Below are positions 5,127 through 64,000 of a stretch of DNA of 64,000 bases, piece after piece (position 1 is the stretch's first letter; each line of letters begins with the position of its first letter). Location: positions 1 to 64,000 of the forward strand of contig JAHBMJ010000488.1 in NCBI GenBank assembly GCA_018398765.1, read 5' to 3'. The position numbers and the translations under genes were made by a program. The notes beneath the pieces are model-generated. The model did not search any database, had not been told where the DNA came from, and saw only the letters and a program-made list of their open reading frames with translations. Source of the stretch: Chromera velia (lineage: Eukaryota).

Positions 5127-5629
5127 ACTGACTGACACGCATGTAATGAATCTCGAACAGTCTCTCTCACAGACACTTACCCGCCTCACATCCTGACTCA
5201 CTCTCTCTCTCTCACACACACCACCTATGCATGTGCAGGCACACAACGCGCAGGTGTCAATGAGAACCCTCAGAAGAAAAAACGGCTTTTTCAGTCAATG
5301 GAAGTCTTTCCTCGTTCCTGTTTTCTCTGATCTTGAGGGAAGCGAAAGAAAGCAACAAACGCAAAAGGGTCCCATTGCTACACCAAATCGGAGAGAGGAG
5401 AGAAAAACCAAAGCGAAGCAGCACCGAAAAGAGAACCCCCCCCCCCCATGCACCCACAGACCCTCATGCCCCTGCAGCCATGCATTTACTTCCATACAGA
5501 CCCACAGAAAGTAAATGCATGCACCCACAGGCCCACCGACCCTCATGCCCCTGCAGCCATGCATTTACTTCCATACAGACCCACAGACCCACAGAAAGTA
5601 AATGCATGCACCCACAGACCCACCGACCC

Positions 5630-8600
5630 TCATGCCCCTGCAGCCAGGATCTGGTCGATCTCGGGAGTCGTGATTGCGTATGGGAGGACGCCGAGGGACT
5701 TTGTCCAGGAGATGGTCTGCTCAACGATGGACTCCTTGGGGGAGAGGAGCTGCTGGACGAGCATACCGAGGAACCTGCACACACAGACAGACAGACAGAC
5801 AGGGGAAAACGAGAAGAGGTCCTCGCTTTGTCACACGTGCCTAGCTGCACTTCTTTCCTTTTCTGTACACGTATTCACGCCTTCACTCCTGGAGAAGGAC
5901 AAACGAGTCCGTTCACGAACAAGCCACCGACGAGCTGAGGGACTTATGTCAACAGACGGGGAAAAAAGGGATTCAAGTAATGGATGGATTGATAAGTTCG
6001 CATGACTCTCTGTCTCTCTGCCTCCTTCTCCAACCCTTTCCCCACGCCCTTTCTCTCATTCCATCTCGACTGTGTCAACATGGACAAAAACAGAGACTTG
6101 CACATAAACAGACAGGCCAAAAAGTAGATGCCAGAAAGAGAAAGAGAAAAGGAATGGGAGGGCATCCGAAGATCCGAGGAATGGCGATAAGCCAATATGC
6201 GTGTGTGTAAGAGCGAGAGAAAGAGAAACTCGGAGACAGGGAATCAACAGACAAATGAAAAAAGGAAACAAACATCGACTCACATGAACATTGCGAGACG
6301 GCCGTGCTCCAGCTCAGACTTCTCCCACCTGCAACACGAACGGGCACGCGCGCACACACATACACACACACACAGAGAGAGAGAGGAAAGAAAAAGAGGT
6401 ACACAGAAAGAAAAAGGGTAAGAGGGAGACGGGATAGAGGGAAGACTAAGGGGAGCGCAAGGGATGAGGGACAGAGAAAGAAGACAACAAAATTCGAAGT
6501 GCGTGTACAACCCGACAAGAGCAGACGAACGAGAAAAAAAACCGAAGGCAAAGGGAACACGCAACGACTGGGAGGGGTCCCGAAAGTCCTTCGTCGACAA
6601 GACCGACGACGTCCAGACATCCACAGAGAGAGCTCTTACGTCCTTCCTTTTTCTTCTCCTTTTACCGTACTCACAGACTGACACGCACACACCCAACAAA
6701 CGGACGCGCACAAGGAGGAAGGGAGGGAGGGCACAGGGGCGGGGAGACTGCTTAAACAAACACAAAAACTGACTGACTGACTGACTGGGGTCTGATTCCG
6801 TTTTTGGAGAGGCCGAGAGGATCGAAGCCTCTGTCCCCGGGGATGCGTCCCTCGTAGTCCTTATTCTTGAACTCCCACCATCCTGCACACACACACACAC
6901 ACAGAGAGAGACAGAGAGAGAATGCGAGAGAGGCAAGCGCAGGAGAGTATAGGTATAGAGGAGTGAGTGCGTGTTCTCGGAAAGAGGAAGAAAGCTGTCG
7001 TATTCCATTAACATGTCTAGGCACAGACACAGAACGAGCAGGGCCCACCGCCGCGCCGCAGGTTCCTTTAGGTGTATGTTGTTTTTCTTTTTTCTGTCCC
7101 TTTCATTTTGAAAGAGGAAACGAAGAATGATATTCGACGAAACTAGGCGATGTCTTCTGCCTGTCCACTTCTTTTCTTCATTCCTTCAGGATTTGCCCTT
7201 TTTTTTTTTTTTTCTCATCACAATTCTGACGTCCCTGAATCCTTCCACGCCCCTCGTAGGATTCAATCATGACATTTGGGAATCGAGTAAGTGATGAAGG
7301 TTGCCTCTCTGTCTGACTCCCTGCCCGATTGGCCCCCTGCCTGCCTCCCTCTTCTTTCTTTTCTCTTCTGACTTACCGATAGCAGCGAAGATCTGGAAGA
7401 TCCCCAGAGGGGGTGCTGTGAAGAGAGCGTCCAAAAAGTTCTTCGATGGGAAGTTCTCCGAGTCCCACCGGTATGTGCTCTGCATTCATTCATTCATTCA
7501 TTCATTCGTCCACTCATTCATTCGTTCATTCAAGCGGTGGGACCGGAAGGCCAGATCGGGTACAGCCGTAGATTATTCACGTGATTGAGCCTCCTGGAAG
7601 GCAGGGTTCTTTTGAGTCATTCGTCCATTCATTCATTCATTCCGGTAGAGTCCAGTTCAGACAGCCCGACGGAGATGTAGAGAAGGTTAAGGAGAACAGA
7701 GTTGAATGAGAAGAAAACGCAACACAAGAAGATCGAGAAAAGACTGGGAGAGCAAGAAAAACAAGAAAAGAGGAGACAGAAAGGAGAATGGAGGCAAGAA
7801 TGCCCCCCTAGGAGCATACAAAAAGAACCCGAAACGAAAAGAGAATTCCAAAAGTCATCCAAAGTGGCACCACGGAGAAATAGACTAATCAAGTTTCACA
7901 CTCCACGTCATGTAGAATCACAAATCTACGCCAACACACTCAACCATCAGAACACACAAAACACACACATGACAGACAGACCTGCACAAGAACGCCCAAA
8001 GTTGCCAACATCGCCAGCCTCCCGTGTCTCAACTCAGCCTCACGGAGTTGCACTATGTCCCCGCCCTCAGCCAAGTTCAGGGGGTCCCATCTGATGGTTC
8101 AATGAAGAGAGAGAAGAAACAGGAAGGAAAGAGGAGAGGTGTGGATGGTGTCTTCTTTCTTTGCACACACATAGAGATAGATGAAGCCCCACTCGCCCGC
8201 CCAGTCTCTCTCAAGAATCGTCATTGCATACGCATCCACCGAATCCAGGATCACAAAATCCTTCGCTCAACCTGTCCTTCTATCTTCCTCAAATACTTTC
8301 AGTCAGCTAAGTGCGTCTGTGTGTGCTCTGAGCCCCTCCCCCAGCCACCCTTTCTCCTTTCACACTCCTCCCTCCATTGTTTTCCATCGTTTCTTCATCC
8401 CTGCCTCCGCCAACCAACCACGCAGAGGGGAAAAGACCGAAAAAAAGACCGAACCGGTCCTCTGCTTCCTCTCGACGACGTGCCTCTTTCCTCTTTCGAG
8501 ATTCCTCCAAACAAGTAAGCAAGCAAGCAAAACTCCATCCTCCCTGCTCCCCTTCCTCCATTGCTGTCTTCCCTCCCTCTCTGCATTTTGAAAGGCCGTT

Positions 8601-10798: not shown

Positions 10799-12259
10799 AT
10801 GACGGTCCGTGAAACTATGCCATTTCGTCGTTTTATCTTTTGCAGCATGACTTTGTCTTTCGCATAGCCACACCTGGCCGCATCGACACCACCTACCTTC
10901 TGTATATGCTTGCAGGACATAGCGCAGAAGCTGGTCGAGAAGGCGCGCACGGGCAAGCAGAAAGAGTGCGAAGATCTCCTGAAGCAGCAGGCGGATGTGC
11001 TCTTCGCAGAACCTCCGGTGAGAAGTGAGGGAGGCCTACATGTGCATGTGTGTGTATGTATGTGATCTCTCCAGAAAAAATGACTGACCTTTACACTCGC
11101 ATGCTGGTCTTCCTCCTTTGCCCCTGCCCAGCCCTGCGCATCTTCACTTTGGTTTTCCTGCGCAGAATGTGGCGTCCAACGGACTCCTTTCGGAAAGGAA
11201 TGCTTCACCGTGAGATGAAACAAAACAGAGCAACATAGGAAGAACAAGAAGAGAGCAGGAGAAGTCTTTTCACCTGGTGATTTGATTTGAGCCCGAGTAC
11301 GAGAGCGACAGCGACCAGCTTCTTCTCTTTGTTGTCTGGTTACCTGTGTACACATAAGTATATCAATGCTCCTATTCACACGTCTGTATGACAGAGACAC
11401 TGCTCTGCAGCGATGACATACTGATTGTTAAGTGCGTTGGCAAGAAAAGTCACGACCAAAATAAAAGAGAAGGATCGAGTGAAACGGAATGGAAAGGACA
11501 GATGACTGCAGTACGAAAAGTCCATGCGATGAAGCCCCAATCTCTCTCTCTCTCTCTCTCTCTCTCGTGTGAGTGAATGACTTAATCAATGAATGAATGA
11601 ATGAATGAATGAATAAATGAAAATGCACATGACTGAATGACTGAGTGACTGCAGTACGAGAGATCCGCTCTCTGGCACGCCGCGTGGAAGGGCTTCGAGA
11701 GCGTCTGCAGACTTCTGATCGACAAGGGGTCAAATGTCAGCCACAAGCTTCTTTCTCTCTCTGTGTGTCTGTCTCTGTGTGGGGGGATGGGTTGAAGGGG
11801 GGTGTCTGCATGCACGCTCGGCTACCGAACAACACAGGGGTGAACATGACTGAAAAGATTTAGAAAGAAGGAGAACAAAATGGTTGACCAAGTGCTTAAT
11901 AAATGCATGCGGCTATGGGTGTTCGTGATTTGCAAAGTCCCCCCGGGTAATCCACCAAAACCGCGATGGAGAGACAGCAGGAGCAAACACAAAGAAGAAA
12001 ACACGCACACAAAAGAAAATGACATGCACACACATGCAACGACACAATCAATCACTTGCAGGTGAACCACAAAGACCGAGAAGGAAGAACGGCCTTGCAT
12101 GAGGCTGCCTTCTACGGCCGCATCAACATCGCCACTCTGTTGCTGGACAGGGGCGCAGACATCAACATCAAGGACAAAGTACGTCAGTGAGTCAGTGAGG
12201 GAGGGAGCGCCTCGGTTTGTTTGACACTTCACTCTTTCTGTGTCTCGCTCTTTCTCTCC

Positions 12260-12298
<39 letters not shown>

Positions 12299-12318
12299 CC
12301 TCCTGGTGCTTCTGCATG

Positions 12319-12370
<52 letters not shown>

Positions 12371-12831
12371 GGAGAGAGCGACAGAGATCTCATTGTGAAG
12401 CAGGCGTCGATCCGTTTTTCTGCCTGCCTGCCCGCCTGCCCGATTGACTAACTGCAGAAAGGACGCACTCCGATCTTCCGGGCAGTCGAGGGCAAACGCA
12501 CAGAGGTCGGCAGAGAGAGAGCCTTTTGCCATGAGTCTCTATTCCTGTCTTTCTCTGTCCGTCTCTGTCTCTGTGTGTGTGTCCTCCCCCACCTTGGCTT
12601 CTTGTCTTCTTTTTATGACTAGAGGAGAGTTGGTGAGGGAGAGGGGGTATTCAAAGCTCCCGTATTTCATTATCTTTTCTTTTCTCTTCTCTTCTCTTCT
12701 CTTCTCTTCTCTTTGTGTGCATGCATATACACATGAATGAAAGCAGATGGTCCACTTCCTCATGGGCAGGGGCTGCGAGATGAACTTCGTTTGCCAAGAT
12801 CCGGTCAGTCAGTCAGCCAGTCAGTCAGTGA

Positions 12832-12867
<36 letters not shown>

Positions 12868-13660
12868 GTAGGTGAGTGCCTCTGTGGGCTTGGACCTTGG
12901 AAACAAGGACAGACAGAGGAATACATACACAGCGAGGCGGGGAGGGAGGGAGGAAAAAAAAAAGACCAAGTCAGTGAATAGCAGTTGCTGTCTGTATGTC
13001 TGGTTGAGGAGTCCAGGTCAACTCGTGCATGTGTAGGGTCCCCTCGCTCTTTTTTTTCAGTTCACGCCTTCAGTCACTTTGCAGGACATGTGAGTGACTG
13101 ACCAATGCGGTACGTTCCGCCGCATTCTTCTTTTAGTACCTTTCGAAAATTTCATTCATCGCTTTATGCTGAGTGCTCGCTGCTTGCAGGACGAGCAGAC
13201 AGAGCTTACCGTCGCCCACCTTGCCGCCTTTGGAGGCAACCCGCGTCTGGATCACTTTCTGTACTTCTCGGGGGCCTGGCACAACAGGTCTGTCGGTTTG
13301 TTGGTTGGTAGAGTTCTTTGTGCATTTCATTTGTGCATCTGCGCATTCACTTCTGTGTGTAGTTGATATTTGTTTGAGAGAGTCCATGTGTGTATCCGTG
13401 CAGATACTCTCTGCACGACCGACGCATGCATTTACATTCATATGCATTTATTTATTTAATTATTCATTTATTTTCTGTATGAAAGTAAATGTATGTATCT
13501 GTGCAGATACTCTCTGCACGACCGTCGCAAAGGGCTGGAGACTCGGAGGGACTGGTTCGAGAGGAGAAGGAGGGAGAAAGAGAGGGCGGCAGAAGAGGAA
13601 CGGTTGGATTTCCCTTTTTTCTTCCCTCTTTCTTTCTTTCTTTCTTTCTTTTTTTCTTTC

Positions 13661-13718
<58 letters not shown>

Positions 13719-16376
13719 TGTTTGTTTGTTTGTTTCTTCCTTTCTTTCTTTCTTTCTTTCTTTCTTTGTTTGTTTCTTTCTTTCTTTCTTTCTTTCTATA
13801 TTTCTTTCTTTTCTTTACTGATGTGTCCATCAATTCAGATCTCTGCCCATTATGACTGCTCGTCTGTGTCTAATTGCTGGCTTGCTTGCTTCCCTGCTTC
13901 TTCTCTGTGTGTCGGTCTTGAACTCGTGTTTAAATTCAATGAAGAAAATCGCTCATAAGTTCATTCATGAATGAAAGCAGGTGGAGGCAGAAGCAAAAGA
14001 GACTAGCCGAAGGTAAGGGCGAAGAGTCAGATGAGGATGACGACAACGGAGAGGACAATCTGAAGGGCGACAAAAAGAGGGTCCGTCGGTCGGCCTAACT
14101 GCCTGCCTGTCTCCCGGTTGTTTTGCCTCGATCTTCGGTGTGACAGTCTGTTTCTCGATTCGGCTGTTTCGTGGTCTGTCTGTCTGTCTGCCTACCTACC
14201 TGCCTTCCTGCCTGCCTATCTGTATGGCTGGCTGACTGCATCTCTATCTATTCGTTTGTCTGTCTGTCTGTCTGTCGCGTTGTCGGTAGTGGAATGTAAT
14301 CGATTTTCGTAAGGTGGAGTCGCATTTATCTGTCCTATGATTTTAGCTGATTCTCCGACTGATCATGCAGAAGCTTCGGCTGAAACAGTTGAAGGCCAAG
14401 CTCTTCTGGGGAAGTGACAAAGATTCTCTGGCAAAGAGAAGAGACCTCTGGCAAAAGTCAGTCAAGAGACCTAGCTCGGCACGTCTCCCTCAAGAAATTG
14501 AGGAAAGGAGAACCAGGGCTTGAAGGGGGGGAGAGTTGATTCTTTACTGCTGAACAATTGAAGACCTCACGCGTACTAATGTTGTGAGTGTCTCTCTGTG
14601 TTTCTTTCTTTGATTCGTTCATTCATTCATTTATCCGGGGGATAATTTTATCATGAGGCAACCGTATCGAAAGGGATGACTGTGCAGTCAGATTTGTCAA
14701 GGGCGCTCTCCAAATGCTGACGATTTCTCTCGTGTCACTGAAGCATTCACGTTCATTTCATTTGTCGAGTATCCGTGCAGGTGGGACCTGAACAAGGACG
14801 ACCGTCTGTCCGTTGCTGAGGCAGTGGAGGGCCTAACGAAACACTTGAAACTGAACGAGAAGGGACAAAAAATCGATAAGGCTATCGTCTTGAGAGCCTT
14901 CAAGCATGCAGCTGTCAGTTGCGAATCTGTGTCTTCTGGTATTTTTTTCTCCTGTTTTCTTCCTTCTTACTGCTTTTCTTTTTCTTCTTCTTCACATCTC
15001 TTCTCTTCTCTCTTCCTTTTTGTTATTTCCGCTGCGAGCCAGCGGACATGAATCGCCGTCGATGCATGCACTCTCGCAGCCTTTCTCTCCGTCCGATGAG
15101 AAGGTGCAGGGAGTTTCAGGGAGTGTCTGCATCCTTTCATTCAGTCTTCCTTCCATGCACCTCCTCGCCTCCTCTCCTTTCCCCTCTCGGCTGTCTTTCC
15201 GTCTTTGTGAGTGCCTGCCTGCAGGGCCACGAGGAGGAGGACGAAGAGGACCTCGAAGAGAAGGAAGAGGGCGGGGGAGAGGTGCCAACCTTGAGGGTGA
15301 CAAACTCGAAGGGCGACTTGAAGGAGGACGAAGAGGACAAGGACGGCAGTGACAAGGGGAGTGGGGGGAGCCAGTCGGGGACGTCCATTCCCTCCTCTGC
15401 AGTCTCTTCCAGGGCAGGGAGCAGAAGAGGATCCTTTGCAGAGACGGAAACAAAATCCGTTGGGGGAGCAAACTCGACACTCGGGAAGACCTCACGACCC
15501 GGCACCTCTAGGCACAAGAAGGGCGCCGTGGTCACCCACCTCCTCTGGCCCCAATTCAGACGCTTCCTCTACCTCGTCACTCAGTATTTCATGTTCCACG
15601 AACTCTTCAAGTCAGTTCTTATACATATTCTTTTGTACATGCAGGCATTCATACTTACATTCATTGCATATCGTTAGACACAAACTTGTTTTCTTGTTGG
15701 ATTGTTCCCGAAGAAAGGGTCTGCAAAGTCTTCAACTTCGATCAAAGAGCCAATTGGGAAACTTGTACTCCTCAATTGAATTTGTTCGAAGTTTTTCACG
15801 GTTCTGGGAAACAAAAAAAAGAGACCTCCAAGATTCCCACCCTCTGCGGAATACCTATCATGAGTGAAAACTCAAAAGTAAGTCCTCTATGATCATGAAG
15901 TCATCCATCATCTCATCCATTCGCATGCAGATACATCGACACATACCGCATGCATTCATTTTCATATACAGGGAATGAATGCATTCACCCATGGGCATCA
16001 TGTGCCTGCAGGGACATTGACACCGACGGCACGATGTCCATCGACATTCAGGAGTTCTCTCAGTCAGTCTCTCTCCCTATCAGTATGTGAGATTCTTTTT
16101 GAGAATGCACAGAAGGAGCAAGTGTGAATGTTCAGGTGTTGTTCCTGTCAGCGCGTGGACCACCTTTTCGTATCCTCAAGAGAAGCAGGGCCATCGAGAT
16201 ACTACTGAAAGTTGATTTTATGTGTACGTGACCACGAAAGCCTTCATTGGAGCTGACGGTGAATGGGTTCGAAGAAAGTCTGCGAGACAGATGGAGGGGA
16301 ACGACGGACACAGTCACATGTAGAGAGCCAAGTACACCCTAGAAAATCATGGAAGAGTCCACATGTATACACACTC

Positions 16377-16408
<32 letters not shown>

Positions 16409-17010
16409 TTTTTCTTTCTTTCTTTCGTTAATTCCGCATGCAGAGCCTCGGAGGCCATGAAGGAGGTCGGGTGTTTCATCCGAGACCCCGTGGCTGAGTT
16501 CGCTCAGATAGATACAGACAAGAGCGGGTGCCTCTCTTTCATGGAGTTCTGCGAATTCTGTTGGAGGAACTCTCTCGACCTGCCGTCAGTCAGCAGTTTC
16601 TTTTCTTTCACTCTTGCTAAAGCTTCTTTGTATCCAATTTCTCCCTTTCTTTTTTTTTCTCACTCTCGGATTCTGGCGAGGCCATTCTTCCAATCCATCC
16701 ACCATTGAGTGAACATTTCGGGGACGGACACTCACCTTTGTTTGGATCAGGAACTTCTTGCAAAAGCAAGCAAGCCTGGGGTACCTGAATGTCTTCTTCC
16801 TCCCCCCCCCCCCTCCATGCATGCTTGTGTGCAGATTCGACGACAACTACGAGCCTGACGACCAAACGAAAAAGATCATCAAGGGGGTCCGGCAGAGGAA
16901 GAGAATGAACGTCCTCGACAACCTCCCGAAGAATGAGAGGTGAGGTGGCCGATGTCAGTGTGTATGGGAAGGTATTTTTGTGTGGACGTCTTCAACTTAA
17001 TCTTGAACAC

Positions 17011-17051
<41 letters not shown>

Positions 17052-19080
17052 CTCATTGTGTATGCGCTCTGCATGCAGGTGGGATGCCCTTATGTCCATG
17101 ATTCCTGCCGGAAAGGATGCCGCAAAGGCGCGTGCCAAGCTGTTTGCCGATCTGGACTCCGGCAAGGGTCGGGGTGCGAACCTGCTGACGTACTCGGAGC
17201 TTTGGGGGAATCTTCGGAAGAAGTTCAGAGGGATGCAGCTGCCGGGGTGCCTCAACCTGTCGTGGCCAGTCAAGGCCGCGTTTGAGGCTGCACGGATGTC
17301 GGGAGGAGACAAGGTGAGTGTGGGAGTAAGTGAGATCGTTGATGAGAAAATGCGCAAATGAGTGTCTGTGTGCGTGCGGGTTGATTCTTTCTCGAAGAAA
17401 GAGAAAGTTGCCTGGTTTGAAAATCCCCTGTCGATCTGGATGTTTGAAGAGAGGGTGAGATCTGTTAGACAGATAGAGCTTCCCGTGAATTCAAGGGGCT
17501 ACTTCACTCTAGGGGAAAATTATTGTTTACGACGATCGCTCTCATACGCTGATCTGTCCATGCGTCGCTCACTGACTGGCCGACTGACTGCAGGAAAACG
17601 AAAGCCGCCTGGAGAGAATGAGCCTCTCGAGACCGGAATTCAGGGCCTTCTGTGAGTACTTGCGGGTGTTCATGACTCTTTTCAGGTTAGTCCGTGTCTA
17701 GTATCTATCTTCTGCTGCCTCTATCTCTTTCTGTGTGTCCCTTTTGATTGGATCCTTTTGCAAAGGTCTTCACACATTCGGAGTGTAGCTGCCGAAATTC
17801 ACGCCACCATTCTGCTTGATTGCCTGTCTCAGAGAACATTTTACTTTCAGTTGACGAAACAAATCCCGTACCTCTCCGCTGCTCTTTCCTTCCTTCCTCT
17901 AGTGCATTTGATGAAAGACCCCTATGGCTTTGGGAAGGCAGACTTAATCAACAAATTGAATTGCAAGGGCAAAATTCCTGAGAACATTTGATGTAACGAC
18001 AACTTGTGTACCCTTGTGTCTGTCTGTCTGTATGCATGGATGCGAGTGTATTATATAATGAATATGGGGAGGGCATGCAGGATGTTCGAGAACCTGGACA
18101 CTTCTGGAGAGGGGAGATTGGATTTCGACGAATTCCAACAAGGATGGAGCCAGATGTACGAGTGGGGGTTCAGGTCAGTCAGTCAGTGAAACACTTAGGG
18201 AGATCGAGGGTCATGACATCTTTTTCTTGGAGTCAACACACATGCGATACTTGCACTTGCTTTCGCAGCTCAGCCCCACTGAAGCGTTCTTTTGCAGCTT
18301 TCAAAATGAAACGTGATCCACAGGAAGAACCGCTCTTTCGGGAGTGCAACAAACTTTTTCTTTCCCTTTCCAACCCCCCGCTGCCGACAAACACGCCCCT
18401 GACTGCCCCACCCCAATCCACCCCTGCACACAGGATGGAGGGCACCTGCGAGGAGAACTTCCGAGAAGCCTCCCAGATGGGTCAGGGCAAGAAGGACCTC
18501 TCGGCCTTGGAGTTCTTCAATTGGGCCCTCAAACAGCCCCTCGACATCTCGTTCGAGAGCGATCCGGACCAAGAGGAGGAGACAGAGGACTCACAGGTTT
18601 GTCAGACAGAGACCGTGTCTTAGATTTTCATGTCCCGGAATCTCAACAAAAAATCGACGAACGGCCCCGAAAGCAGACAGATAGACAGAAAGAGAGACGG
18701 ACAAGCAAGGAAGCCAGCCAGCAAGAAATCCCTCAACCTCACGCACCTTTCATGTCTCTGAGCATGAATTTCCTTCTTCCCCTGCTTCTCTACAGAGTGC
18801 GCCCGCCAACGGATCATCCAACCGCACTTCCCCGGAGCCGCCCGCAGACGACGAAAAGGAAGGGGGAGATGGAGAACAAGCCGAGGCAACAGAAGGAGCA
18901 ACGTCCGGAGAAAGGGCAGACGCGTCAGCCCCAGCGGATGCAGGGGGGGGAGGAGAAGGAGGAGACGGCGTTGAGGCTGCCGGAGAGAGTGGGCCACCGG
19001 AGGATGGGGAGACGGCAGGGGATCCAGGGGACCCATCAGGTGCCGGAGGGGGAGAGGGCGAGGGAGGAGGGGGGGGGTGA
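10799..19080 (+). CDS. Ankyrin-repeat protein with two C-terminal calflagin (flagellar Ca2+-binding protein)-like EF-hand domains and an acidic Gly-rich tail; paralog A, multi-exon
   Basis: A 6-nt first exon ATGACG|GTCCGT is followed by ankyrin exons (SALWHAAWKG, GRTALHEAAFYG, GRTPIFRAVEG, TVAHLAAFGG). EF-hand loops include DLNKDDRLSVAE, DTDGTMSIDIQE, DTDKSGCLSFME and DTSGEGRLDFDE. The RAFK...QFRRFL...FHELF pattern resembles trypanosome calflagins. TGA at 19078-19080. Confidence 0.85.
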
Positions 19081-20773
19081 CCTGATTGAATGACCTGCTT
19101 GATGGTAGAACGATGAAATAACCGAAAACGAAATTCATTTTCTGTGTAGTGGAGTTCCGCCTGCATGAATTGTTGTTGTGACTGACTGACTACATGAAGG
19201 AAAATTTTTTGACACAGGGGGGAAAGGTGTTCTTCCTTGCTTGCTTGCTGGTTTTCTTGCTTGTTCGGCTGGCTTTGAGAGACGGCTTCTTTCAATATAA
19301 TGGTATCCTCACGGCTCCTCGGGCATCGATAGCAGAAGCCTTTCTCATGTAAATTTCTTCTGAACACGAACACACAAATCTAAGTGGAATGGGCAATTGG
19401 GAGAAGGATGGTAAGAGACAATCAAATGAGGGAGTCAAAGGAAGGGCTGATGTAACTAATGAACGCGATGTGGTCAGTTTGACCATTGGTGAAAGCCGTC
19501 AATCCTTTCCTTCTTCCTTGTGCAACAATGTGATCTTCTGCAACTAGACCGGGGCGTCTCTCGATTTGTGCGCCAATCGAGATGCAGAGAGAGGAATTTT
19601 ATGATGGAGATCAACCAGGCAGGGTTCTTTTACAGAGCAAAGGATCTGATCCCTGCACAATGTAGAATCTGCCTGCATGTGTTGTTCATCCCTTCAACCG
19701 GTTTCCAAGTCGATTGGTTGATTTTGCCGGACTCTCTTCGTTCGACCGCTCTGTCTAGCGCTGTGTGAAGATGAAACGCTCTGCAAACGAAGAATCAAAC
19801 AAAGCCGTTGATTCCATGCCAGCACTACCTAGAGCGCTGCCACGACGAGCCTGCCACTCAGCCTGGGTTGTGCAGTCACTTGTGCAAAGAGGAAAAAGAA
19901 GAGTAAGCTAGAGAGAGACGGCCTCAGACGGCCCTAAGTCATATATAGTCTAAATTCTAATCTCAATTATAATAGGTAAAGTTCCTGGTAAATAGCTATG
20001 TCCGTGCACAAAAGGCCATCCCACTCTAAATTCACCTGTTATTGTGAATATCTAGGTGAATATAACTCAGCTGAAGGTAAATAAGAATTCTATGACTTTA
20101 ATTTATATACAAAACTTATTTGTTACTTCAAGTTAGTATAGTAGTATGCCAGTGCCTCTATTTTGAATTATTCAAGTTACTATCCACTAGTAATAGTATT
20201 CTCATGAATTATCATGTCTGGTCTCATGTCATCAATCATCTTAGCGATCATCATCATCATCTCAATTTATATGCCATTCCTATCAGCCTATTTCTAGGCT
20301 TTTAGCTTCGAGACAGTGTCTTCTTATAATAGCGTTAAATTCATAACCATCATACCTAAATACATGAACAGTATGATGAACTTTTCCCGATGGGGTTTAA
20401 TTCATTTAATTTATTTGGCATTTTATTATCAGTATAGTTTTTAATATAGACTAATAAAAGCCTAGTAAGTTAAATTTTTATATTAGAGACTGGATTATAG
20501 AGATCAAATTTTGAGGATTATGAACCTTTTGTACTAGTTTGTACATAATCTATATGTAAGTAAATTGCTGGAATTATTGTATACATAGATTTAATATCTA
20601 ATATGGATTGTTTTGATAAAATAAAATAATTCGTTTACTAATTTGTTGTAACTTACGCTGTTTCTTTAAACTTTCTTACGCTCTCCATTATTCTCAATAG
20701 CACTTTTCTGTTTATTTTCTGTTTGCATGGATTCCTTCTTAATTCAGAGAAGGCTTCCCAGCTGCTGCCCCCA

Positions 20774-22726
20774 TCATGGAGTCTTCAGAGAGTCTGTGCC
20801 TGCATTTGACAGGGCAGCATTTGAATCTCCTTCTTCGGTCTTCTCCTCCTGAGCCGGCTCCCCCACTGAGGCACCACTGGCCTCTTCCGTCCCCTCGTTC
20901 TCTGGTGTTTCTTTTGCCTCCGTACACTGCCTGAGGAGTACTTTGAGCACTCGCTCCTGAAGCAGAGCACAGCGGCGCTTGTGGGCTGACGGAGAAGGGC
21001 CCCCCCCATCAGGGCCCTTCATGTTCCAGTGGGCTTTCTGACATTCCCGGGAACAGTAGACTGCAAGCTCGCACACCTTACAGTGCATCTGGGCTTGAGG
21101 TGTTTCCTTTCCGCACTTCTCGCAAGGGATTGTCCAGGCCTCCCTCACCTGTCGTCGGGAGCACATGGCATTCCTGTAGGCATATTCTTTCTGCGAAGGA
21201 GCGGGGGGGGGGGAATTTGCTGCCGACTCTCTCTGCAAGTTCGAAGAGACGAGGAAGGGGGGAGTCTCTTGCCCCACTTCGAGGGTGCGACCTGCCTCAA
21301 ACGATGTGAGGATCTGCTGCTCTAGAAAGTCATACAGGCTGTGGAGGGGCTGTTCAGACAGGCGGGGAAAAGCCTTTCGGAGGTGTCGGTGGAGGGGCGT
21401 GCAGCAGGAGCATTTGGCATCCTGTGACTGCCCCTTGTGGGCGGAGGGATTTGGGTCGAGATAGACGTGCAAAAGGCCGAGAAACTTCCTCATGACACCC
21501 TCTTCGAACTTGAATACGTACCTGGTAGATGATACTGCCCCGTTCATATTTTCGTCCTGCTTTATCACCTCTGTCCAGCTCCTTTCGAGCGATGCAAGTA
21601 ACTTGGCAATTTTTTTCCCGTCTTTTCGAACTCTTTCCGCAACTTTTCGATTCTGAAGGCTCATGAGGATTGCCTTGACTGTGAAAAGCAATTGGTGCCT
21701 TGCACATTGCCAATCATCCCCTGTCTCCATCTTCCTTTTTCCCCACCTGCATACTGCATCATCAAACAGCGATCGTGCTTCTGCGGCGGAATCTGCTGCG
21801 GCAAATGCGGACTTGTGAGCTTGCTTGATGGCTGTGGACATACCCAACCATTCAAATTCGGACACTGCCCCCCCCCAATTCCATATTCTGTCATAGGCTG
21901 TTGTGTGATCTTCTCGGGAGATCTTCCAAAGTGCGCGGAAGACTGGGGCAAATTCCAGTGAGGCATTTTCTTTCTTTTGCATGTCTGCAGGGGCACAGCA
22001 GTTCAAGCTCTCCACTGTCTGTCTGGAAAGGCCCCCAAATCGGACAAGAACCTTTACAAGACGGAATGCTGAAGTGACGTGCTGGTATGTATGCCCCAGT
22101 CGAGGAAAGAAGTTCTTCAATCCTAGTTTGAAAGCTGTGCTCTTCAGTACAATGTGACACAGGTGGGGTTTTGCCTCCATAAGGAGCTTTAGGAGATCTG
22201 CAGCCATGGCGACTACCCCAGAAGGGTACACGCCCTTTCTCTGTCGTGCCGAGCCACCGCAGAACATCCACAGGATGGAGTGGAAGAAGTCTTTGATCAA
22301 CAGAAGGTCATCCACCACCTCGATGAAGCCTGAGGGGTCTGCTCTTTGCATTTGAGAAAGAGGATGTCCCAACGGGCCGAAGCATTCAACAACCAGGTAC
22401 CTCTCAACAGAGCATACCAACATGTCGCGACTGAAATCGATTGGCTCAAAGCCAGACTTGAACTCGGAAACTTTCTGCTGCAGCCACTGAAAAGTGCAGC
22501 CGTGCACTGCTCTTTCCACATGGTCTTCTCCTGATTCCGAGTCTGTTGTATTCAACAACGACAATGAGGTTTTAAGTAATTCAACGCATTCAAGCATTTG
22601 CAGCGCTGCACTTCGCAAAGCGGTGTACTTCGAGCTCGCAAGGGCGAAATCAGGTATCTTCTGACCAACAGAGCCGTTCTCTGGGGCCTGGAACAAAGTC
22701 TGCTCCAGGAACTGTGGCGTGCCCAT
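20774..22726 (-). CDS. Intronless ~650 aa protein with a C-terminal MYND-type zinc finger
   Basis: Long open frame with first in-frame ATG at 22726; motif CEKC...CKVCELAVYCSRECQKAHW...HKRRC. Confidence 0.85.
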   Translation of the reverse strand: MGTPQFLEQTLFQAPENGSVGQKIPDFALASSKYTALRSAALQMLECVELLKTSLSLLNTTDSESGEDHVERAVHGCTFQWLQQKVSEFKSGFEPIDFSRDMLVCSVERYLVVECFGPLGHPLSQMQRADPSGFIEVVDDLLLIKDFFHSILWMFCGGSARQRKGVYPSGVVAMAADLLKLLMEAKPHLCHIVLKSTAFKLGLKNFFPRLGHTYQHVTSAFRLVKVLVRFGGLSRQTVESLNCCAPADMQKKENASLEFAPVFRALWKISREDHTTAYDRIWNWGGAVSEFEWLGMSTAIKQAHKSAFAAADSAAEARSLFDDAVCRWGKRKMETGDDWQCARHQLLFTVKAILMSLQNRKVAERVRKDGKKIAKLLASLERSWTEVIKQDENMNGAVSSTRYVFKFEEGVMRKFLGLLHVYLDPNPSAHKGQSQDAKCSCCTPLHRHLRKAFPRLSEQPLHSLYDFLEQQILTSFEAGRTLEVGQETPPFLVSSNLQRESAANSPPPAPSQKEYAYRNAMCSRRQVREAWTIPCEKCGKETPQAQMHCKVCELAVYCSRECQKAHWNMKGPDGGGPSPSAHKRRCALLQERVLKVLLRQCTEAKETPENEGTEEASGASVGEPAQEEKTEEGDSNAALSNAGTDSLKTP

Positions 22727-24769: not shown

Positions 24770-25943
24770 TCAAGAGGGAGGTTGCTCTTCTGCCGCCCCT
24801 CCCCCCTCGCCCCCGCCTCCCTCCCCGGAGGCCTCAGGTGGAGCCTCTGCTTCTCCTTCTGCTGCTGCGGCACCTGTCTCAGCCCCCCCTGCTTCGGCAG
24901 CCTCTCCCTCTCCCTCTTTTTCTTCTTTGGTGCCCTCTGCAGGTGCTTCTGCTCCTTCTGTCTCCCCCTCTTCCTCCTTTGTATTTGGGGCAATCGGCAG
25001 ATCTGGAGTGAGAGCCAGGGGCTCATCTGCCCCCTCTTCCTCTTCCTTCTTCTCCTGTTCATCCTCAGGATCTCCCTCGAAGGAAATCTCCAGAGGCTGC
25101 CCCATCGCCCAGTTGAAAAACTCCAGAGCAGAAATGCCATTCGACCCCTGAGCCATCGAGGCCGCCTTCGAGAAGTGATCCTCGGGGGTGCCCTCCATAC
25201 TGATGAAAGGAACATGCAGACACGAGCGCAAAGGAAAGTAAGGGTAGACATGAGAAGGAAGAAAAAATCATAAAAGGAAAGGTCCTCTCTCTTGTCTCAT
25301 GCATGAAAGAGAAACTCTAATTCAATCTGAGATACTTTCTGGATGTTTTAGTCAAAACCCATACGTACACCCCAAAAGAAACGCATATTTGAACATCTGC
25401 TCATCAGTCAGAAAGATGCACAAACATCACATTTGAAGAGAAAAACAAAAAAGCACAGAGAGAGAGAGAATGCACTCACGTGAATCCCCAGTCGGTCATC
25501 TGAGACCACCCAGTAGAGAATTCGCTCTCATCCAGAATTCCCTCTCCAGAGGTGTCCAGTTGCTCGAACATCCTGCACTCACGCATTCAGTATGTACACA
25601 CAGTCATTAGCTCTCTCCACACATATGTTGAAATAAGTCGAAGGAAAGGAAAACAGACCGAATGCACCCATGCACTAACTGTACAGCATTGGCATTCACA
25701 CGAGAACCCCATTTCTGCAGAAAGGGAAAATATGAATAAACAAATCCAAAGAAAAGCAGGCAGATTGAATGGAACCCCCCAACCAACCCACCAAAAAACC
25801 GACAGACAGACCTGAAGAGAGTCATGTACAGGCGGAGGTACTCGCAGAAGAACCGGAACTCCCTGCGAGAGAGGGAGGACCTGCCCAGAGAGTCCTCGCC
25901 CTCGTCGATCATTTGGGTGTTTCGGAACGCCGCCTGTCCAAAC

Positions 25944-25976
<33 letters not shown>

Positions 25977-27955: not shown

Positions 27956-27994
<39 letters not shown>

Positions 27995-29829: not shown

Positions 29830-29860
<31 letters not shown>

Positions 29861-29889
29861 GAGACAGAGAGACAGACAGACAGAGAGAC

Positions 29890-29926
<37 letters not shown>

Positions 29927-29957
29927 CAAAGACAGACAGACAGACATACAGACACAA

Positions 29958-29988
<31 letters not shown>

Positions 29989-31132: not shown

Positions 31133-32244
31133 GCACTCTCAAGCCCCACACGTCCACTCACGTACCTTGCCTCTTTGGCAGCCCTCTCCTTCTCCTTCCT
31201 CCGCTTCTCGAACCACTCTTTCCTCGACTCCATGCCCTTCCTCCGGTCGTGGAGAGAATACCTTCACAGATACATACATTTACTTTCATACAGAATGAAA
31301 TACATATAGAGAGAATACCTGCAGCCAGGCCGGCATGTGAGGACAGGAGGACAGAGGAGTCATGCAGATTTAAAGATAATTCATAAATGATAAAACGTTC
31401 AAAGAAGAGAGAGAAAAGATCAGAAGAGAAGAGAGAGGCAAAAGGAGAGGAAGCGTACACCTACAAGACTACATGGAGTCCGGATATGTACTGCTTCTGA
31501 CACATGCACGCTCAGGGAACACAAAAGGGCTCGCATTGCCCTCATTCCTCCTGCACTCATGCCATCATCCTCCACACAGACAGACAGACAGACAGGCAGG
31601 CAGAGACACATACAGGAAAGAGCCACAGACAGGCGGAGACACATACAGGCAGGGAGACAGCCCATCAGAAACGGACCTGTTGTGCCAGGCTCCGGAGAAG
31701 AAGAGAAAGTGCTCGAGAGGAGGCTTCCCACCGAACGCAGCGAAGTGCGCACACGTCAGCTCAGTAATCTCATCCTGAAAGAGGAGGAACGGAGAGGAGG
31801 ATGCGGTGTCAGGGGGGAGGGAGGTCTGTGCGTTTATTCTCTGACCACTTTTTCATTCGAGCGGAGGATTTAATTTCAATCAAGAAGTTAGCAGGCAGTC
31901 AGTCAGTCAGTCGGTCAGTCAGTCAGTGAGTGAGTGAGTGAGTCAGTCAGTCAGTCAGGAAGTGAGTCAGTCAGACCGGCATTCGGTCAGACCGGCAGAC
32001 AGGAAGACAGGAAGACTGCTCAAAAGGTCTGTCACCCAGGGAGGGCCAGTGGCAGTATCTCACTCTTGCAGTGAGGCCGTCTGGACACTTGGTCATGCTC
32101 TCTCTCAGTCACTGACCGACTGACCGGATCTTGGCAAACGAAGTTCATTTCGCATCCCCTTGCCATGAGGAAGTTCACCATCTGCACAGACACACACAGA
32201 GAAGCAAACACAGAGACAGAGAGAGACACGCAGACAAACACACA

Positions 32245-51400: not shown

Positions 51401-54400
51401 CAGATCCGAGACAGTGCGTTTGTCCAAGATGAGAAGAAAAACGAGACGAGGGAGAATGTCCGAGAAATAACCCTGTGTCTCTCCGCCCTCGTTACAAGCA
51501 CTTCCTGTCTCTTCAGGCGCTCACAGTTCGTGCGTGTTGTCTTTCAATTCAGGTATTGAGTTTGTGTGTATCCGGTTGGGCCGACGGAGTCATGCGTGTT
51601 GTCTGTCTGTCAATTCAGGTATTGAGTTTGTGTGTATCCGGTTGGGCCGACGGAGTCCGTCTCCGCCGTCAGCGCACAGCTGAGGCGGCCGCCCTGGGAA
51701 CCCGCCTGGTTCGCTCTGTGGCGAGTCGGGCCGTGAGGGGATGGAGGACCTTCGCTCGGCAGAGATCTGAGAGAAGCAAATTGGAAAGTGTGAGTGAGGG
51801 GAGGAAGTGTTTGATTTCGGGTGTTGGTTTTCTCTTTTTTCTTCGTGCCCTGGGCCTTGTGAGGAATATGTTTGAGTGGCCTGAAGTGCGCTTGAAGGAA
51901 TGGAAGACAAAGATAGAGAAAACAGGAAGGAAGGAAGCAAAGAAGGATAGAGAGGAAGGGAGGAAAAAAAGGAAGCAGGCACGCCAGACAGAAACAAATG
52001 TGGTAGGATCGGAATTTAAATTTGCACTTGCTTCTCTTCTCTTTTGCTTCCTCATTCATCTTCGTTGCTCAACGAAATGAAGTGGTGATCGAGGCATAAG
52101 GGAGAAAACAAGAAATCACAGTGGAGGGAGGAGGAGCTTGACTGATGCAGTCTTTTTAACTTTCAGGTGGAAATGCATGGATGCAGTCGAGTCCTGTGCT
52201 TCAAAGCTTCATGAGTAGTTTCAACGATGGATTCGCTGCCAAAGTGACTTGGTCGGCATTCTTGATTTCTCTTTTCATAGAGCAGTTTGAGTACAGGAAA
52301 GAGGTGGGCGAAAGAAATGGCTCTTCATTTTTTGGAAAAACGATGTTTACACATACGTGCTCGGGGTGCCTACCTGATTCTTCTTTGCTTCTTTTTTCCG
52401 GGTTGCCTGTCTCTGTGTCTGTCTGTCTGTCTGTCTGGCAGGCTGTGGAGGACTGGAGGAGGAAGCGGAAGCAGAAGGAGCTGCTGTCGGCGTGGGAGTC
52501 GGGGACCCGGAAGATGAGGGCGTACAGAGAGGGGGGGAGTCGGGTGGCTACAGTCCTGAGGGCTTCTGTGCTGGGAGGGGCCTCCACGGCGTTGCGCATG
52601 TGAGTCAGTTTGTCTGTTTGGTTGGATGCATGGACACAAATGAATGCATGATGAGGTTCTGCTTTTTTTTGTTCGCTTCACGACTCGAAGAGTGAGAGGC
52701 GAGCCACAGTGTTTGTGGGAGGCACAAGTGCAAGAATGAGCAAGCCGCACAGAGGTTTCGAGAGGCGATACAGTCACAGAGTGGAAGTTTGTGCCTGTCT
52801 CTTTTTGGCTCTCTGTGAGTCAGGAGAGCTGCCCGCATATCAGCCGGTTGCCTGTCCGTCATGTGACAGGAGAAAAAGGCTGCTGGACATGTCTGCACTC
52901 GTGTGGGGGTCCGCTTGCTTCTGCTGGTTCAATCAGAATGCGTGTATGTGTGTCCCTTGCCAGCGACTTTCTGACGAACCGAAATGCCTCTGCCTGCCCG
53001 CAGGTGGCGCCAGAGGTCCATCATGGAGGGGGTGCTGGACAGATTCGTGTTGATCCTCGAGGGCCGGTGCTGGCTGGACAGGCAGCAGTGGACTCGCACA
53101 ATCGCGTCACTTCGGTCGGTTGGTCGGCAGGTGGAAAGTAGATTGGGAGGATATCCAATGGATGGGATCATTGGTGGCCTGCTTTTTTTTTTGGCCTTGT
53201 GTTTCTTTCCGGCTTTCCCAGTCCGTGTGCTGCTTTTTTGCTCTTTGATTGGAATTTCTTGACCGATGTTCTGTCAGCAGGGTACGGAATCAGAGGAATA
53301 AATCGACTGCACAGATAGATGTTCTCTCTTCTGACTTTCTTTTTCTTTCTTTCAGATCTGCAAAGGTGATGTGGGCAACGTTGAAGACCAAAGGAGACGC
53401 CGAGGAGAGTGAAAGAGCCCATGCAGTAGGAGACGGATTGCCCTGCAGTCCCGCCCGTGTCCTTCGGGGAGAGGATCGGGGCGCCTCTTCGTCGTCATCT
53501 GCTGCTCCTGCTGTGAATGGACACGCAGTTGGACACGCTCGAGAGGGAGCGGGGGGTGCAGAGGCCTTGCTGAAGGAGGCGCTTAGGGCCCATGGGTCGA
53601 GAAAGGTGGAGGGGGGGGAAGAGGAGAACGGAACGCCGGCAGATGGGCCATCATTACAGGTGGGCAGGCAGGCTGGGTTGCTGGGGGATGGATAGAATTC
53701 AGAGGGATGGAAGTAAAGTGATGAAGTTGACACAAAAGTTTATACTAGATGACTGTTTTTCTGGCTCTGTCTAGTGATGCAGGGTTCGGCTATTTCTCCA
53801 AAGTGAGGGACAGGGATTGCATTTGTTTGTTTCTCGAACGTCTCTTTGCTGTTAGACAGACACCCTTCCTTTTCTTCGGGTGACCTGCCTGCTCTCGTGG
53901 CCTGCTTACTGTTTCGACCTGTTTGAGAGTTGCTGTATACCTTGACGCACGCACGCACGCAGGTCCTTCTTGACGTGATGTGGTGGAGAGTGCAACTGTG
54001 CGAGGCGCTGCGTCGTTGGCGACGTGTGGGGAGACTCCTGGCGGAGGGGGGCACTTCTCTCAGGGCAGAGGCGTTCAAGAGAAGAAAATGGAGGGGGCAG
54101 ATGTTCCTAGGTCAGCCTGGTATTAGAGGAGGAAGGGGGATAGAGGAGGAGGAGGAAGAGTTTGCAGGGGCATCGGAAGAGGAAGAGGCCCCGATTGCTG
54201 ATGAGTCACCCCGGAGGCGGCCAGTTGGGGGCCCTCCCGTGCTGTCAGGGTCCGCCAGTGGGCGTTTGGAACGCTCTCTGAGGGGAAGGGAAAGCGGGGG
54301 GAGTGGGGGTGATGAGGGAGGGATCTGGAGATTGAACAGGTGGCCTCTGTCTCAGGCTGTGCTGACAGTCGGAAGCCCTCAGTGGCGTCGCGCTAGGTCC

Positions 54401-62600: not shown

Positions 62601-64000
62601 TCATCCATTCATCCGTTCCTTCATTCATCCAGTGCTTTCACTTGTTTAGTCAGTTTCGGAGGGAGGGAGGGAGGCAGGGAGGGAGAAAGGGAGATTTCGT
62701 GTCAACAGCTGCAGTGAAGCACGTGGAGAGAGACAGATAGGCGCATGCAATGCAAGGGCATGCCTCGAGGAGGAACTCAAGAAGCTGTGTTCCCTTTCTT
62801 TTGGGGACAGGACACACACGCACACACGCACACATACACACACGGCCAACAGGCTGCTGACCGTCTCTTGGCGATTGTGGCTTCGGAGGGGTTGTTGGCG
62901 GCGTAGTAGTAGAGGTTCGGGGTTGTGCCGATGAGTTTGTCGGGGTAGCATCCTTCGGACATGCCCACCTGCTTGCCGGGCATGAACTCCAGAGAACCGT
63001 GGGTACCGAAGTGGAGGACTGCGTCGGCACCGAAAACCTGCAATTTCAATTCCAATGTAAGTGCGTCCGTTGACGGGGGGCGGGGGCTTCGGGGAAGGCA
63101 CCAAAAAAACACAATACATCAGACGTGCTTGGGGGAAGGAAATTCAGGGTGCACCGAATAACCAATCGGCCTGCGGGGCGTTCAAGACTCAGGGCAGCCG
63201 TCTCTCTTTCTCTTTCTGACTTATGCACGATACACAAGTTGGCAAGAAGGCGATTCGCTCTGTAGATTCATGTATCGGTTCCTCGGTGATTGCTTTTGTT
63301 TGCCTGTATTTACTTTCATACAGAATTCTTTTTCTGGATGAAAGTAAATACAAAAACAATTAAAACGGGTTCCTCGGTGATTGCTTTTGTTTGCCTGCCG
63401 ACCTTCTCGAGATAGGTGTAGTAGGCGGCAAATCCGTGGTGGGGGGAGGCGGACTTTGCGAAGAGGAGTCTCATCGGATCGCCCTCGTACCCGAAGGTCG
63501 GCTGGATGCCAATGAAGACGTTGCCGAACTTGACACCAAGCACCAGCATGTTCTGACCGTCGCTGTTCAAGTTCCCGGGAGCAGGGCCCCAGTTCTCCTC
63601 CAACTCCTGAAAGAAGGAAAATTACATGCGTTTATTTTCATCCAGAAATGAAAAATGAAAATAAAAAATGAATTCTGTATGAAAATAAACGCAAGCAGGG
63701 CCCCAGTTCTCCTCGAGCTCCTGGAAGAAGAAAGAGAGAAAGAAGGAAGGAAAAAGGGCAAGAGATTTCATTCATACTGTGAGTGAAAAGGGAACCAGTC
63801 CAGTTCCTCGGCAGCCACGGGAACGGCGAGGGCGTAGATGGATTAGCAAGAAGGGCAGACAGAGTGTTAGGCAGAAACATCGGAACGGATGCTGACTGAA
63901 GAGAGAGAAGCAGACCGACCGACCGACCGACCTTGTAGTAGGGTGTGAGTTCCTTGTACTCCTTCACGGGCATTTTGTACGCCACGTTGAGTGTGGGGGA
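59353..64000 (-). CDS. chlH: Magnesium chelatase subunit H, 3' portion (5' end lies beyond the window), multi-exon
   Basis: Motifs [95 protein letters not shown] and [10 protein letters not shown] at 59353-59355. Confidence 0.97.
62415..62630. repeat. (ATTC)n intronic microsatellite running up to a splice acceptor
   Basis: Directly visible. Confidence 0.95.
63306..63351. repeat. Hairpin element (20-bp arms, 1 mismatch) between 30-bp direct repeats
   Basis: GTATTTACTTTCATACAGAA-ttcttt-TTCTGGATGAAAGTAAATAC; direct repeats at 63277-63306 and 63368-63397. Confidence 0.9.
63627..63693. repeat. Hairpin element (21-bp arms, 1 mismatch) between ~40-bp direct repeats
   Basis: TGCGTTTATTTTCATCCAGAA...TTCTGTATGAAAATAAACGCA; direct repeats at 63580-63620 and 63694-63733. 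Confidence 0.9.

What the first reader, a model, noticed from the sequence alone, without database searches (positions are those of the whole stretch)
5461..63733. Candidate new element family: a conserved hairpin that sits between duplicated exon-boundary sequences
Seen: an arm of consensus ~(G/T)CATTTA(C/T)TTTCATACAGAA, usually with its inverted partner, occurs at 5480 and 5559 (LHC), 13429-13491 and 15950-15984 (paralog A), 31277 (paralog A'), and 63306 and 63627 (chlH). In every case it lies between 12-41 bp direct repeats of host sequence that span or abut an exon boundary. The arms are shared between unrelated genes, while the loops and repeats are locus-specific. Established: cut-and-paste transposons make short fixed-length TSDs, and introners form whole introns, so neither fits. 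Inference: this is a tiny insertion element or repair filler that targets splice junctions, or survives only there because one intact junction copy is kept. It leaves decoy splice sites and could seed intron gain or sliding.
Basis: partly seen in the sequence, partly recalled or inferred. Interest (0 to 1): 0.88.

Follow-up and report, generated by a model that had tools for sequence, protein, structure and literature searches.

The report
Hairpin insertion that duplicates splice sites
In the alga Chromera velia, a short hairpin repeated at many places in the genome sits between 15-44-base duplications that mostly copy the end of an intron, leaving a spare splice site that is skipped at the one such site checked against RNA; it is likely written in by a retrotransposon-type enzyme at staggered DNA cuts, and would be an undescribed way for mobile DNA to remodel intron ends.

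Summary
The arm occurs 8 times against 0.04 expected, always between direct repeats of 15-44 bp. The window is Chromera velia. At chlH the structure is in contigs of two DNA runs, and many other contigs carry the arm, so it is a genome-wide repeat and not a misassembly. The seven listed hits are five or six events. Four duplicate a 3' splice site, one starts 6 nt inside an intron after the donor, and one spans a stop codon. Spliced contigs remove both chlH elements inside ordinary introns and use the acceptor copy next to the exon, so this is not an introner. Boundary placement is unlikely by chance (about 0.0003-0.005 by null), on few events. Duplications are too long and variable for a MITE. 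Best reading (0.45): both 3' overhangs of a staggered cut are extended on one short RNA end, as in dual-primed LINE or Penelope insertions, then joined. No enzyme, parent element or empty site was found. No description turned up in nine literature searches.

The parts
5447..5480 (-). LHC site, outermost copy of the duplicated segment (about 34 bp)
5481..5519 (.). LHC hairpin 1: 11-bp stem, loop resembling the local repeat
5516..5559 (-). LHC site, middle copy
   Evidence: 43/44 identical to the next copy
5560..5606 (.). LHC hairpin 2, a tandem re-duplication of hairpin 1 with one more 8-nt loop unit
5603..5646 (-). LHC copy continuous with the last coding exon; spans the stop codon (5632-5630) and a predicted donor at 5627
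   Evidence: exon structure by inspection, no RNA
13386..13426 (+). Gene A (ankyrin/EF-hand) decoy copy with CAG acceptor; read-through is 103 nt with 2 stops
13427..13493 (.). Gene A insert: truncated and restarted left arm, AT-rich filler, full right arm
13489..13529 (+). Gene A copy holding the acceptor used in the database gene model (13506|13507)
15918..15950 (+). Gene A second site, diverged decoy copy with CAG acceptor; read-through is 81 nt, in frame, no stop
15951..15983 (.). Gene A second hairpin, followed by 15 nt of unassigned filler
15999..16031 (+). Gene A copy holding the acceptor used in the gene model (16011|16012)
31252..31266 (-). Paralog A' exon-side copy; acceptor reads AAG; the database model skips this exon (31166-31261)
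31267..31308 (.). A' insert: one clear arm; 31 nt identical to the gene A intron end
31309..31323 (-). A' upstream copy with CAG acceptor; read-through is 57 nt with 1 in-frame stop
63277..63306 (-). chlH intron, inner copy of a perfect 30-bp duplication
63305..63352 (.). chlH hairpin 1: 21-bp stem with one mismatch, 6-nt loop; 15-nt spacer follows (63353-63367)
63368..63397 (-). chlH intron, copy beginning at +6 after the donor at 63402
63580..63619 (-). chlH copy holding the acceptor used in spliced contigs (63607)
63627..63693 (.). chlH hairpin 2: 21-bp stem with one mismatch, 25-nt loop of reiterated arm pieces
63694..63733 (-). chlH decoy acceptor copy, skipped in spliced contigs of two studies; read-through is 114 nt with 1 stop
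11503..11666 (+).
   Evidence: arm score only at background level, so membership is uncertain

Best explanation
This is a repeated short hairpin of Chromera velia flanked by 15-44-bp target duplications, likely made when a retrotransposon-type reverse transcriptase extends both 3' overhangs of a staggered cut on the 3' end of one short RNA. Shown: the arms point inward from both duplicated copies, are shared between unrelated genes and occur on many other contigs; at chlH the spliceosome removes the insert with the surrounding intron and uses the acceptor copy next to the exon. Inferred: two nicks 30-45 bp apart leave 3' overhangs; each anneals by 2-6 nt to the template end (about GCATGCA) and is extended by 10-45 nt, sometimes with slippage and restarts; the two new ends are joined, picking up a few local bases; fill-in completes the duplication. 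Inferred: cuts fall preferentially just upstream of 3' splice sites, partly because 26 of 40 annotated acceptors read TGCAG and match the template end, partly for a reason not known (chromatin or co-transcriptional splicing). Hits wholly inside exons would be purged; hits across a boundary survive because one copy stays continuous with the exon.
For: Duplications are long and variable, 15-44 bp; variable length is the signature of nick-primed insertion as stated in PMC8557442 and PMC9977147. Two template ends facing outward inside one duplication is the geometry of twin or dual priming in L1 (PMC2837659) and of inverted 5'-truncated Penelope copies (PMC8557442); Chlamys Penelope insertions are very short and intronic (PMC9977147). 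Arms are truncated at different inner points and restart, and letters between arms at other loci differ from contig to contig and by eye hold arm pieces (12 of 35 rows shown). The two arms of one insert are more alike than arms of different inserts (3 mismatches against a mean of 10.2; 2 of 120 pairings as low), as expected if both come from one template molecule. Flank ends read GCA, CCA, GCATG, CAT or TG where the arm begins (by eye). Chromera holds 5.2 Mb of annotated LINEs (PMC4501334 supplement 11).
Against: No reverse transcriptase, parent element or template RNA was found; the genome was not available and Rfam gave 0 hits in the window. No poly(A) tail. No paper in the library holds Chromera, Penelope and reverse transcriptase together. 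Both chlH inserts carry the same A/C mismatch between their two arms, and other loci match the 42-bp hairpin without gaps, which fits a fixed two-ended unit better. Arm co-variation also fits fold-back copying or MITE subfamilies. The two chlH duplications hold no TGCA. The A' insert shares 31 nt with paralog A and may have been copied from DNA. Microhomologies were not tested statistically. Only 5-6 events.
Confidence: 0.45

Rival explanations
1. A miniature inverted-repeat or foldback DNA transposon, or the remnant left by abortive gap repair after a longer element excised, whose transposase makes unusually long staggered cuts.
For: Terminal inverted repeats of up to 21 bp and many copies. 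The same A/C asymmetry in both chlH inserts, which lie in opposite orientation. Gap-free matches to the 63308-63349 hairpin at other loci. Chromera has 6.3 Mb of non-autonomous class 2 elements.
Against: Duplications of 15, 30, 33, 40, 41 and 32-44 bp are far from the fixed 2-10 bp of DDE superfamilies (recalled). Insert length and interior differ at every site in the window. No longer element with these ends in the 64 kb.
Confidence: 0.25
2. Host break repair with no element-encoded enzyme: paired nicks give a tandem duplication, and polymerase-theta-type or synthesis-dependent repair copies filler from another genomic copy of the hairpin through TGCA-like microhomology, so that the hairpin spreads as a self-templating patch.
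For: In A' the decoy follows the A' exon at all 3 of 10 positions where A and A' differ, so the two duplications arose separately (or were homogenised later), yet the A' insert carries 31 nt identical to the intron end of A, including bases that in A belong to the duplication. The LHC loop resembles the local repeat. Boundary duplications without a clear arm exist (11503, about 11946, 51528). Staggered-break fillers with direct repeats make new introns in Daphnia (PMC4202315).
Against: Such fillers usually come from nearby or unrelated sequence (recalled), and the Daphnia exon-intron repeats are 4-12 bp. It does not explain why both ends pick the same template end in four unrelated sites, nor why most duplications fall at 30-44 bp.
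Confidence: 0.22
3. The family is real but inserts without regard to splice sites; the boundary pattern is small-sample luck plus purging of exonic hits.
For: Only 5-6 events. A TGCA or GCAG target raises the chance per event to 0.32-0.36.
Against: Chance per event is 0.15-0.23 in 48 annotated introns; the product is 3.5e-4 for five events and 1.8e-3 without LHC. With the motif target it is still about 0.005 (hand arithmetic). No arm lies in the 38 kb outside the four genes.
Confidence: 0.08

Closest known systems
Twin- and dual-primed L1 insertions with 5' poly(T) (Meyer et al. 2010, PMC2837659; passages read)
   Same: Two primed ends inside one target duplication, truncated copies facing each other, microhomology at the outer junctions.
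   Different: Template end is a mixed TGCA-ended sequence, not poly(A); both copies are 10-45 nt; duplications are 30-44 bp in most cases; the structure appears to be the rule here, whereas 39 loci were validated in primates; dual priming was speculation in that paper.
Penelope-like elements, Naiad/Chlamys (Craig et al. 2021, PMC8557442; Lopez-Cortegano et al. 2023, PMC9977147; passages read)
   Same: Inverted 5'-truncated copies, variable target duplications, very short intronic insertions.
   Different: No pseudo-LTR, ORF or parent seen; their targets are microsatellites, not splice acceptors; Chromera does not occur in the main text of PMC8557442.
MITEs and foldback elements (definition as in PMC11195612, passages; foldback features recalled)
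   Same: Short, non-coding, terminal inverted repeats, many copies, in genes.
   Different: Duplication long and variable; interior variable; 33-67 bp long; no transposase partner known.
Introners (Gozashti et al. 2025, PMC12130899; search listing and a term search of 12 of 14 supplements only)
   Same: Repeated element tied to splice sites.
   Different: Does not form an intron; it sits at the edge of an existing one. Chromera was not found in the supplements searched; Vitrella is listed with 0 families.
Staggered-break filler introns of Daphnia (Li et al. 2014, PMC4202315; passages read)
   Same: Insert between direct repeats at exon-intron boundaries.
   Different: Their exon-intron repeats are 4-12 bp and the inserts are new introns; here the insert has shared arms and stays inside an old intron.
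Replitron-1 of Chlamydomonas (Craig 2023, PMC10288648; passages read)
   Same: Variable-length target duplications.
   Different: Replitrons have direct, not inverted, terminal repeats and insert in one orientation; most families make no duplication.

Membership tests
MITE / DDE non-autonomous element | Terminal inverted repeats | tested here: met
   Stems of 10-21 bp at 5 of 7 sites; a short inverted end at A-13429; one clear arm at A'
MITE / DDE non-autonomous element | Short target duplication of fixed length | tested here: not met
   15, 30, 33, 40, 41 and 32-44 bp
MITE / DDE non-autonomous element | Uniform length and interior among copies | tested here: inconclusive
   All interiors differ in the window; some other loci match one hairpin without gaps, others hold different letters between the arms
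MITE / DDE non-autonomous element | Autonomous partner with the same ends | not testable with these tools
   No genome held; none in the window
Introner | Element makes up a whole spliced intron | tested here: not met
   Spliced contigs remove 365- and 325-nt introns that contain the 48- and 67-nt hairpins; gene models agree for gene A
Twin/dual-primed non-LTR or Penelope insertion | Variable-length target duplication | tested here: met
Twin/dual-primed non-LTR or Penelope insertion | Two truncated copies of one end facing each other inside the duplication | tested here: met
   Geometry seen directly; that the arm is an RNA 3' end is inference
Twin/dual-primed non-LTR or Penelope insertion | Microhomology at the outer junctions | tested here: inconclusive
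   2-6 nt at several junctions by eye; no statistical test
Twin/dual-primed non-LTR or Penelope insertion | Parent element encoding reverse transcriptase and nickase, ending in the arm | not testable with these tools
   No genome held; collection scans gave no related locus
Twin/dual-primed non-LTR or Penelope insertion | Poly(A) tail (L1 type) | tested here: not met
   Outer ends read TGCA, TACA or CGCA; this excludes L1 type only
Replitron | Short direct terminal repeats of the element | tested here: not met
   Ends are inverted; the direct repeats are host sequence
Staggered-break filler (Daphnia type) | Filler unique to each site | tested here: not met
   Arms shared between unrelated genes and many contigs
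Known structured RNA family | Rfam match | tested here: not met
   0 matches at gathering scores in the window

The most novel reading that the evidence does not exclude
Chromera carries a splicing-coupled insertion system: an RNA-templated enzyme is drawn to 3' splice sites, cuts about 10-20 nt upstream of the AG and again 20-30 nt into the exon, and writes a hairpin between the two copies, so that thousands of acceptors have been rebuilt, with the arm supplying new branch-point sequence. Decayed copies would then be the source of the (TGAA)n tracts and ATGAAAGCAG or TGAATGCAG endings common at Chromera acceptors, and in-frame cases such as 15931-16011 would be acceptor shifts in the making.
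Probability: 0.15. Interest if true: 0.9.

Novelty: new variant of a known kind. Interest (0 to 1): 0.64.

Why it matters
How splice sites shift and how intron ends turn over are open questions, and known mobile routes (introners) create whole introns. Here a repeat seems to duplicate existing 3' splice sites, leaving dated decoys next to working sites. If the window is typical (6 sites in 64 kb, genome 193.6 Mb), there could be of the order of ten thousand natural experiments on how a spliceosome chooses between two near-identical acceptors, and a large sample of an insertion geometry (two primed ends, 30-44-bp duplication) that is rare and partly hypothetical in L1. All of this can be tested on the public Chromera genome and RNA data.

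Tried and rejected
Whole genome: none held, so no census of copies, duplication lengths or parents. Two-arm pattern: 0 hits in metagenome and viral contigs. One-arm patterns: 4 viral and 1 metagenome loci, with no partner arm or duplication evident in the 180-240 bases read around them, taken as chance. Rfam: 0. Earlier findings of this scan: nothing on this genome or sequence; 8 archaeal or bacterial hairpin notes that do not bear on it. No RNA holder was listed on record; X3 and X7 are RNA by guess, but their contigs are spliced at canonical GT-AG ends. No empty site seen: an unspliced X3 contig with 3 differing letters in 325 still carries the left copy and arm of chlH-63306; the A' acceptor homologous to A-15950 has no duplication but is too diverged to serve as a clean empty site. 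Read depth over the arm (6379 against 15-18 in X1; 11899 against 24-29 in X2) was not taken as a copy number, and not all of the 226 and 241 contigs laid are on the arm. Rejected: misassembly; introner; LHC repeat as a coding-exon splice boundary; snRNA origin of the arm (no Rfam hit; resemblance to recalled U6 judged weak, not tested further). A four-way DNA alignment of whole sites was uninformative. No transposase or reverse-transcriptase-like frame was recognised among 27 ORFs at 19100-24700 (by eye; only the MYND frame was scanned). Nine literature searches listed no description of this repeat; subscription papers, Repbase, 4 of 16 supplements of PMC4501334, 2 of 14 of PMC12130899 and bioRxiv supplements were not seen.
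Full report
Host and genes. A chlH exon from the window is 100% identical to the Chromera velia CCMP2878 magnesium chelatase H subunit. Genes A (+, 10916-19077) and A' (-, 24773-34247) are ankyrin/EF-hand paralogs with database models P0122 and P0121. Exact spliced alignment placed 18, 15 and 7 introns in A, A' and chlH. I added three A' exons that the model skips but that align to A, and six LHC exons by inspection, giving 48 introns of mean length 362 nt after removing the inserts.

The arm is real. A profile of the arms finds 10 strong hits, all at the listed sites, against 0.03 in shuffled windows, and the next best score is at background. Three hairpins fold at z -5.7 to -8.4; the A' site does not (z -1.7). 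In one search, 226 contigs of DNA run X1 and 241 of X2 lay on 62680-64000; the longest ones listed that are not from this locus cover only the 41-45 nt of the hairpins, and summed depth there is several hundred times that of the flanks. The tool warns that this is no copy number, and some contigs lie on other small repeats, but it shows that the arm occurs at many other loci. Contigs of both runs reproduce the chlH structures with no differing letter, so they are not assembly errors.

Duplications and number of events. Local alignment of the flanks gives repeats of 31/32 and 43/44 (LHC), 38/41 (A-13429), 24/33 (A-15950), 14/15 (A'), 30/30 (chlH-63306) and 36/40 (chlH-63627) identical bases. 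The two LHC hairpins share private variants and form a tandem array, so they are one insertion. A-13429 and A'-31277 sit at the homologous acceptor. Each decoy follows its own gene's exon at the 3 of 10 positions where A and A' differ, so the duplications arose separately or were homogenised later; yet 31 intronic bases are identical between them while the rest of the intron does not align. The simplest reading is that the A' insert was copied from A. I count five independent events, six with A'. The range of divergence between copies (0 to 27%) suggests activity over a long time (inference).

Relation to gene structure. Contigs from two studies (X3, X7; RNA by guess) join 63035 to 63401 and 63605 to 63931 with GT-AG ends, as does the ChlH model. 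So both chlH hairpins lie inside ordinary introns, the acceptor copy next to the exon is used, and the 63306 duplication begins at intron +6 without containing a splice site. Contigs drop rare forms, and use of the decoy would add a stop and might be hidden by decay. For gene A, only the gene model speaks, and it uses the downstream acceptors. At 15950 read-through from the decoy is 81 nt with no stop, so alternative use is possible and untested. At A' the exon-side acceptor reads AAG and the upstream CAG leads to a stop; the model skips that exon, so the insertion may have damaged splicing there (inference). In LHC the joined frame has its only stop at codon 242 of 242: the repeat spans the stop codon, and a donor 2 nt later is only predicted.

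Is the boundary link more than chance? With duplications placed evenly wherever they are not wholly exonic, the chance of spanning or lying within 6 nt of a splice site is 0.18-0.23 per event (0.11 for A'); the product is 3.5e-4 for five events and 1.8e-3 without LHC. If the target must hold TGCA or GCAG near one end, the chance per event rises to 0.32-0.36, about 0.005 for five. A reverse test asked whether exon ends have a copy in the adjacent intron: 7 of 48 acceptors and 1 of 48 donors scored 22 or more, against 0.8% and 1.4% of 1608 comparisons with other introns. Four of the seven are the finding's own sites; without them it is 3 of 44 against about 0.4 expected, and one of those three is weak. 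The bias is therefore to acceptors. The null covers only the four genes that hold hits; the other 38 kb, with MYND, YbaB and Sfi1 genes, holds none.

Anatomy and mechanism. The arm reads about GCATGCATTTACTTTCATACAGAATTC from the outside in. Arms stop at different inner points and restart; the LHC loop resembles the local repeat; the 12 rows of letters between arms shown for other loci (of 35) differ from each other and by eye hold arm pieces. The two arms of an insert are more alike than arms of different inserts (3 mismatches against a mean of 10.2; 2 of 120 pairings). Long variable duplications point to two separate nicks (PMC8557442; PMC9977147). Two copies of one end facing each other inside a duplication is what twin or dual priming gives in L1 (PMC2837659) and what inverted truncated copies give in Penelope-like elements. 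I therefore favour priming of both overhangs on one short RNA (0.45). Against it, no enzyme or parent is known; both chlH inserts share an A/C mismatch between their arms; and some other loci match one hairpin without gaps, which suits a fixed two-ended DNA element (0.25). The A' case and arm-less boundary duplications suit host repair copying from DNA (0.22). Since 26 of 40 acceptors read TGCAG and the arm ends in TGCA, microhomology may account for part of the acceptor bias, but the two chlH duplications hold no TGCA.

Comparison with what is known. It fails the MITE test on duplication length and the introner test on being a whole intron. It works most like dual-primed retrotransposition but cannot be filed in a family without a parent. 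The Chromera genome paper gives only class totals (5.2 Mb LINE, 6.3 Mb non-autonomous class 2, 13.8 Mb unclassified; supplement 11), and the passages and 12 of 16 supplements searched do not describe this repeat. Chromera was not found in 12 of 14 supplements of the 2025 introner survey. Nine searches listed no description; Repbase and subscription papers were not seen. All papers were read as passages or supplements, none whole.

Verdict. A real and apparently undescribed repeat with an unusual signature and a probable bias to 3' splice sites, resting on five or six events in one window and on RNA evidence for one gene. New variant of a known kind; interest 0.64.

Noticed in passing
window 983-1346: A 36-bp inverted repeat (94% identical) about 290 bp apart with TA-rich outer ends; looks like an ordinary MITE unrelated to the hairpin family.
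   Followed up: no
window 51528-51657: A 62-bp tandem duplication with no hairpin in the Sfi1-like gene, apparently across a short exon's donor.
   Followed up: partly
window 11946-11970 and its A' counterpart near 33100: A decayed copy of the next exon's start inside an intron shared by A and A', probably an older acceptor duplication; no clear arm.
   Followed up: partly
window 12746, 13980, 61962, 62414, 7480: Acceptors ending in ATGAAAGCAG or TGAATGCAG, two behind (TGAA)n tracts; these resemble the arm's outer part and could be relics or simply the host branch-point motif.
   Followed up: no
window 10916-34247: Inverted paralogs A and A' are 71-83% identical in most exons but 95% over 11950-12215 and 91% over 12743-12816, which suggests patchy gene conversion; the A' model skips three exons that are intact in the DNA.
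   Followed up: partly
window, 40 annotated introns: Donors are unusual: GTCAGT 13, GTCGGT 5, GTCTGT 3 of 40, and none GTAAGT.
   Followed up: no
window 20774-22813 (-) and 39859-40407 (-): An intron-less 679-aa MYND-finger frame in an AT-rich region, and an intron-less YbaB/EbfC DNA-binding family gene.
   Followed up: no
window 63010-63334: An unspliced contig of run X3 differs from the window at 3 of 325 letters, so another allele or strain also carries the chlH-63306 insert.
   Followed up: partly
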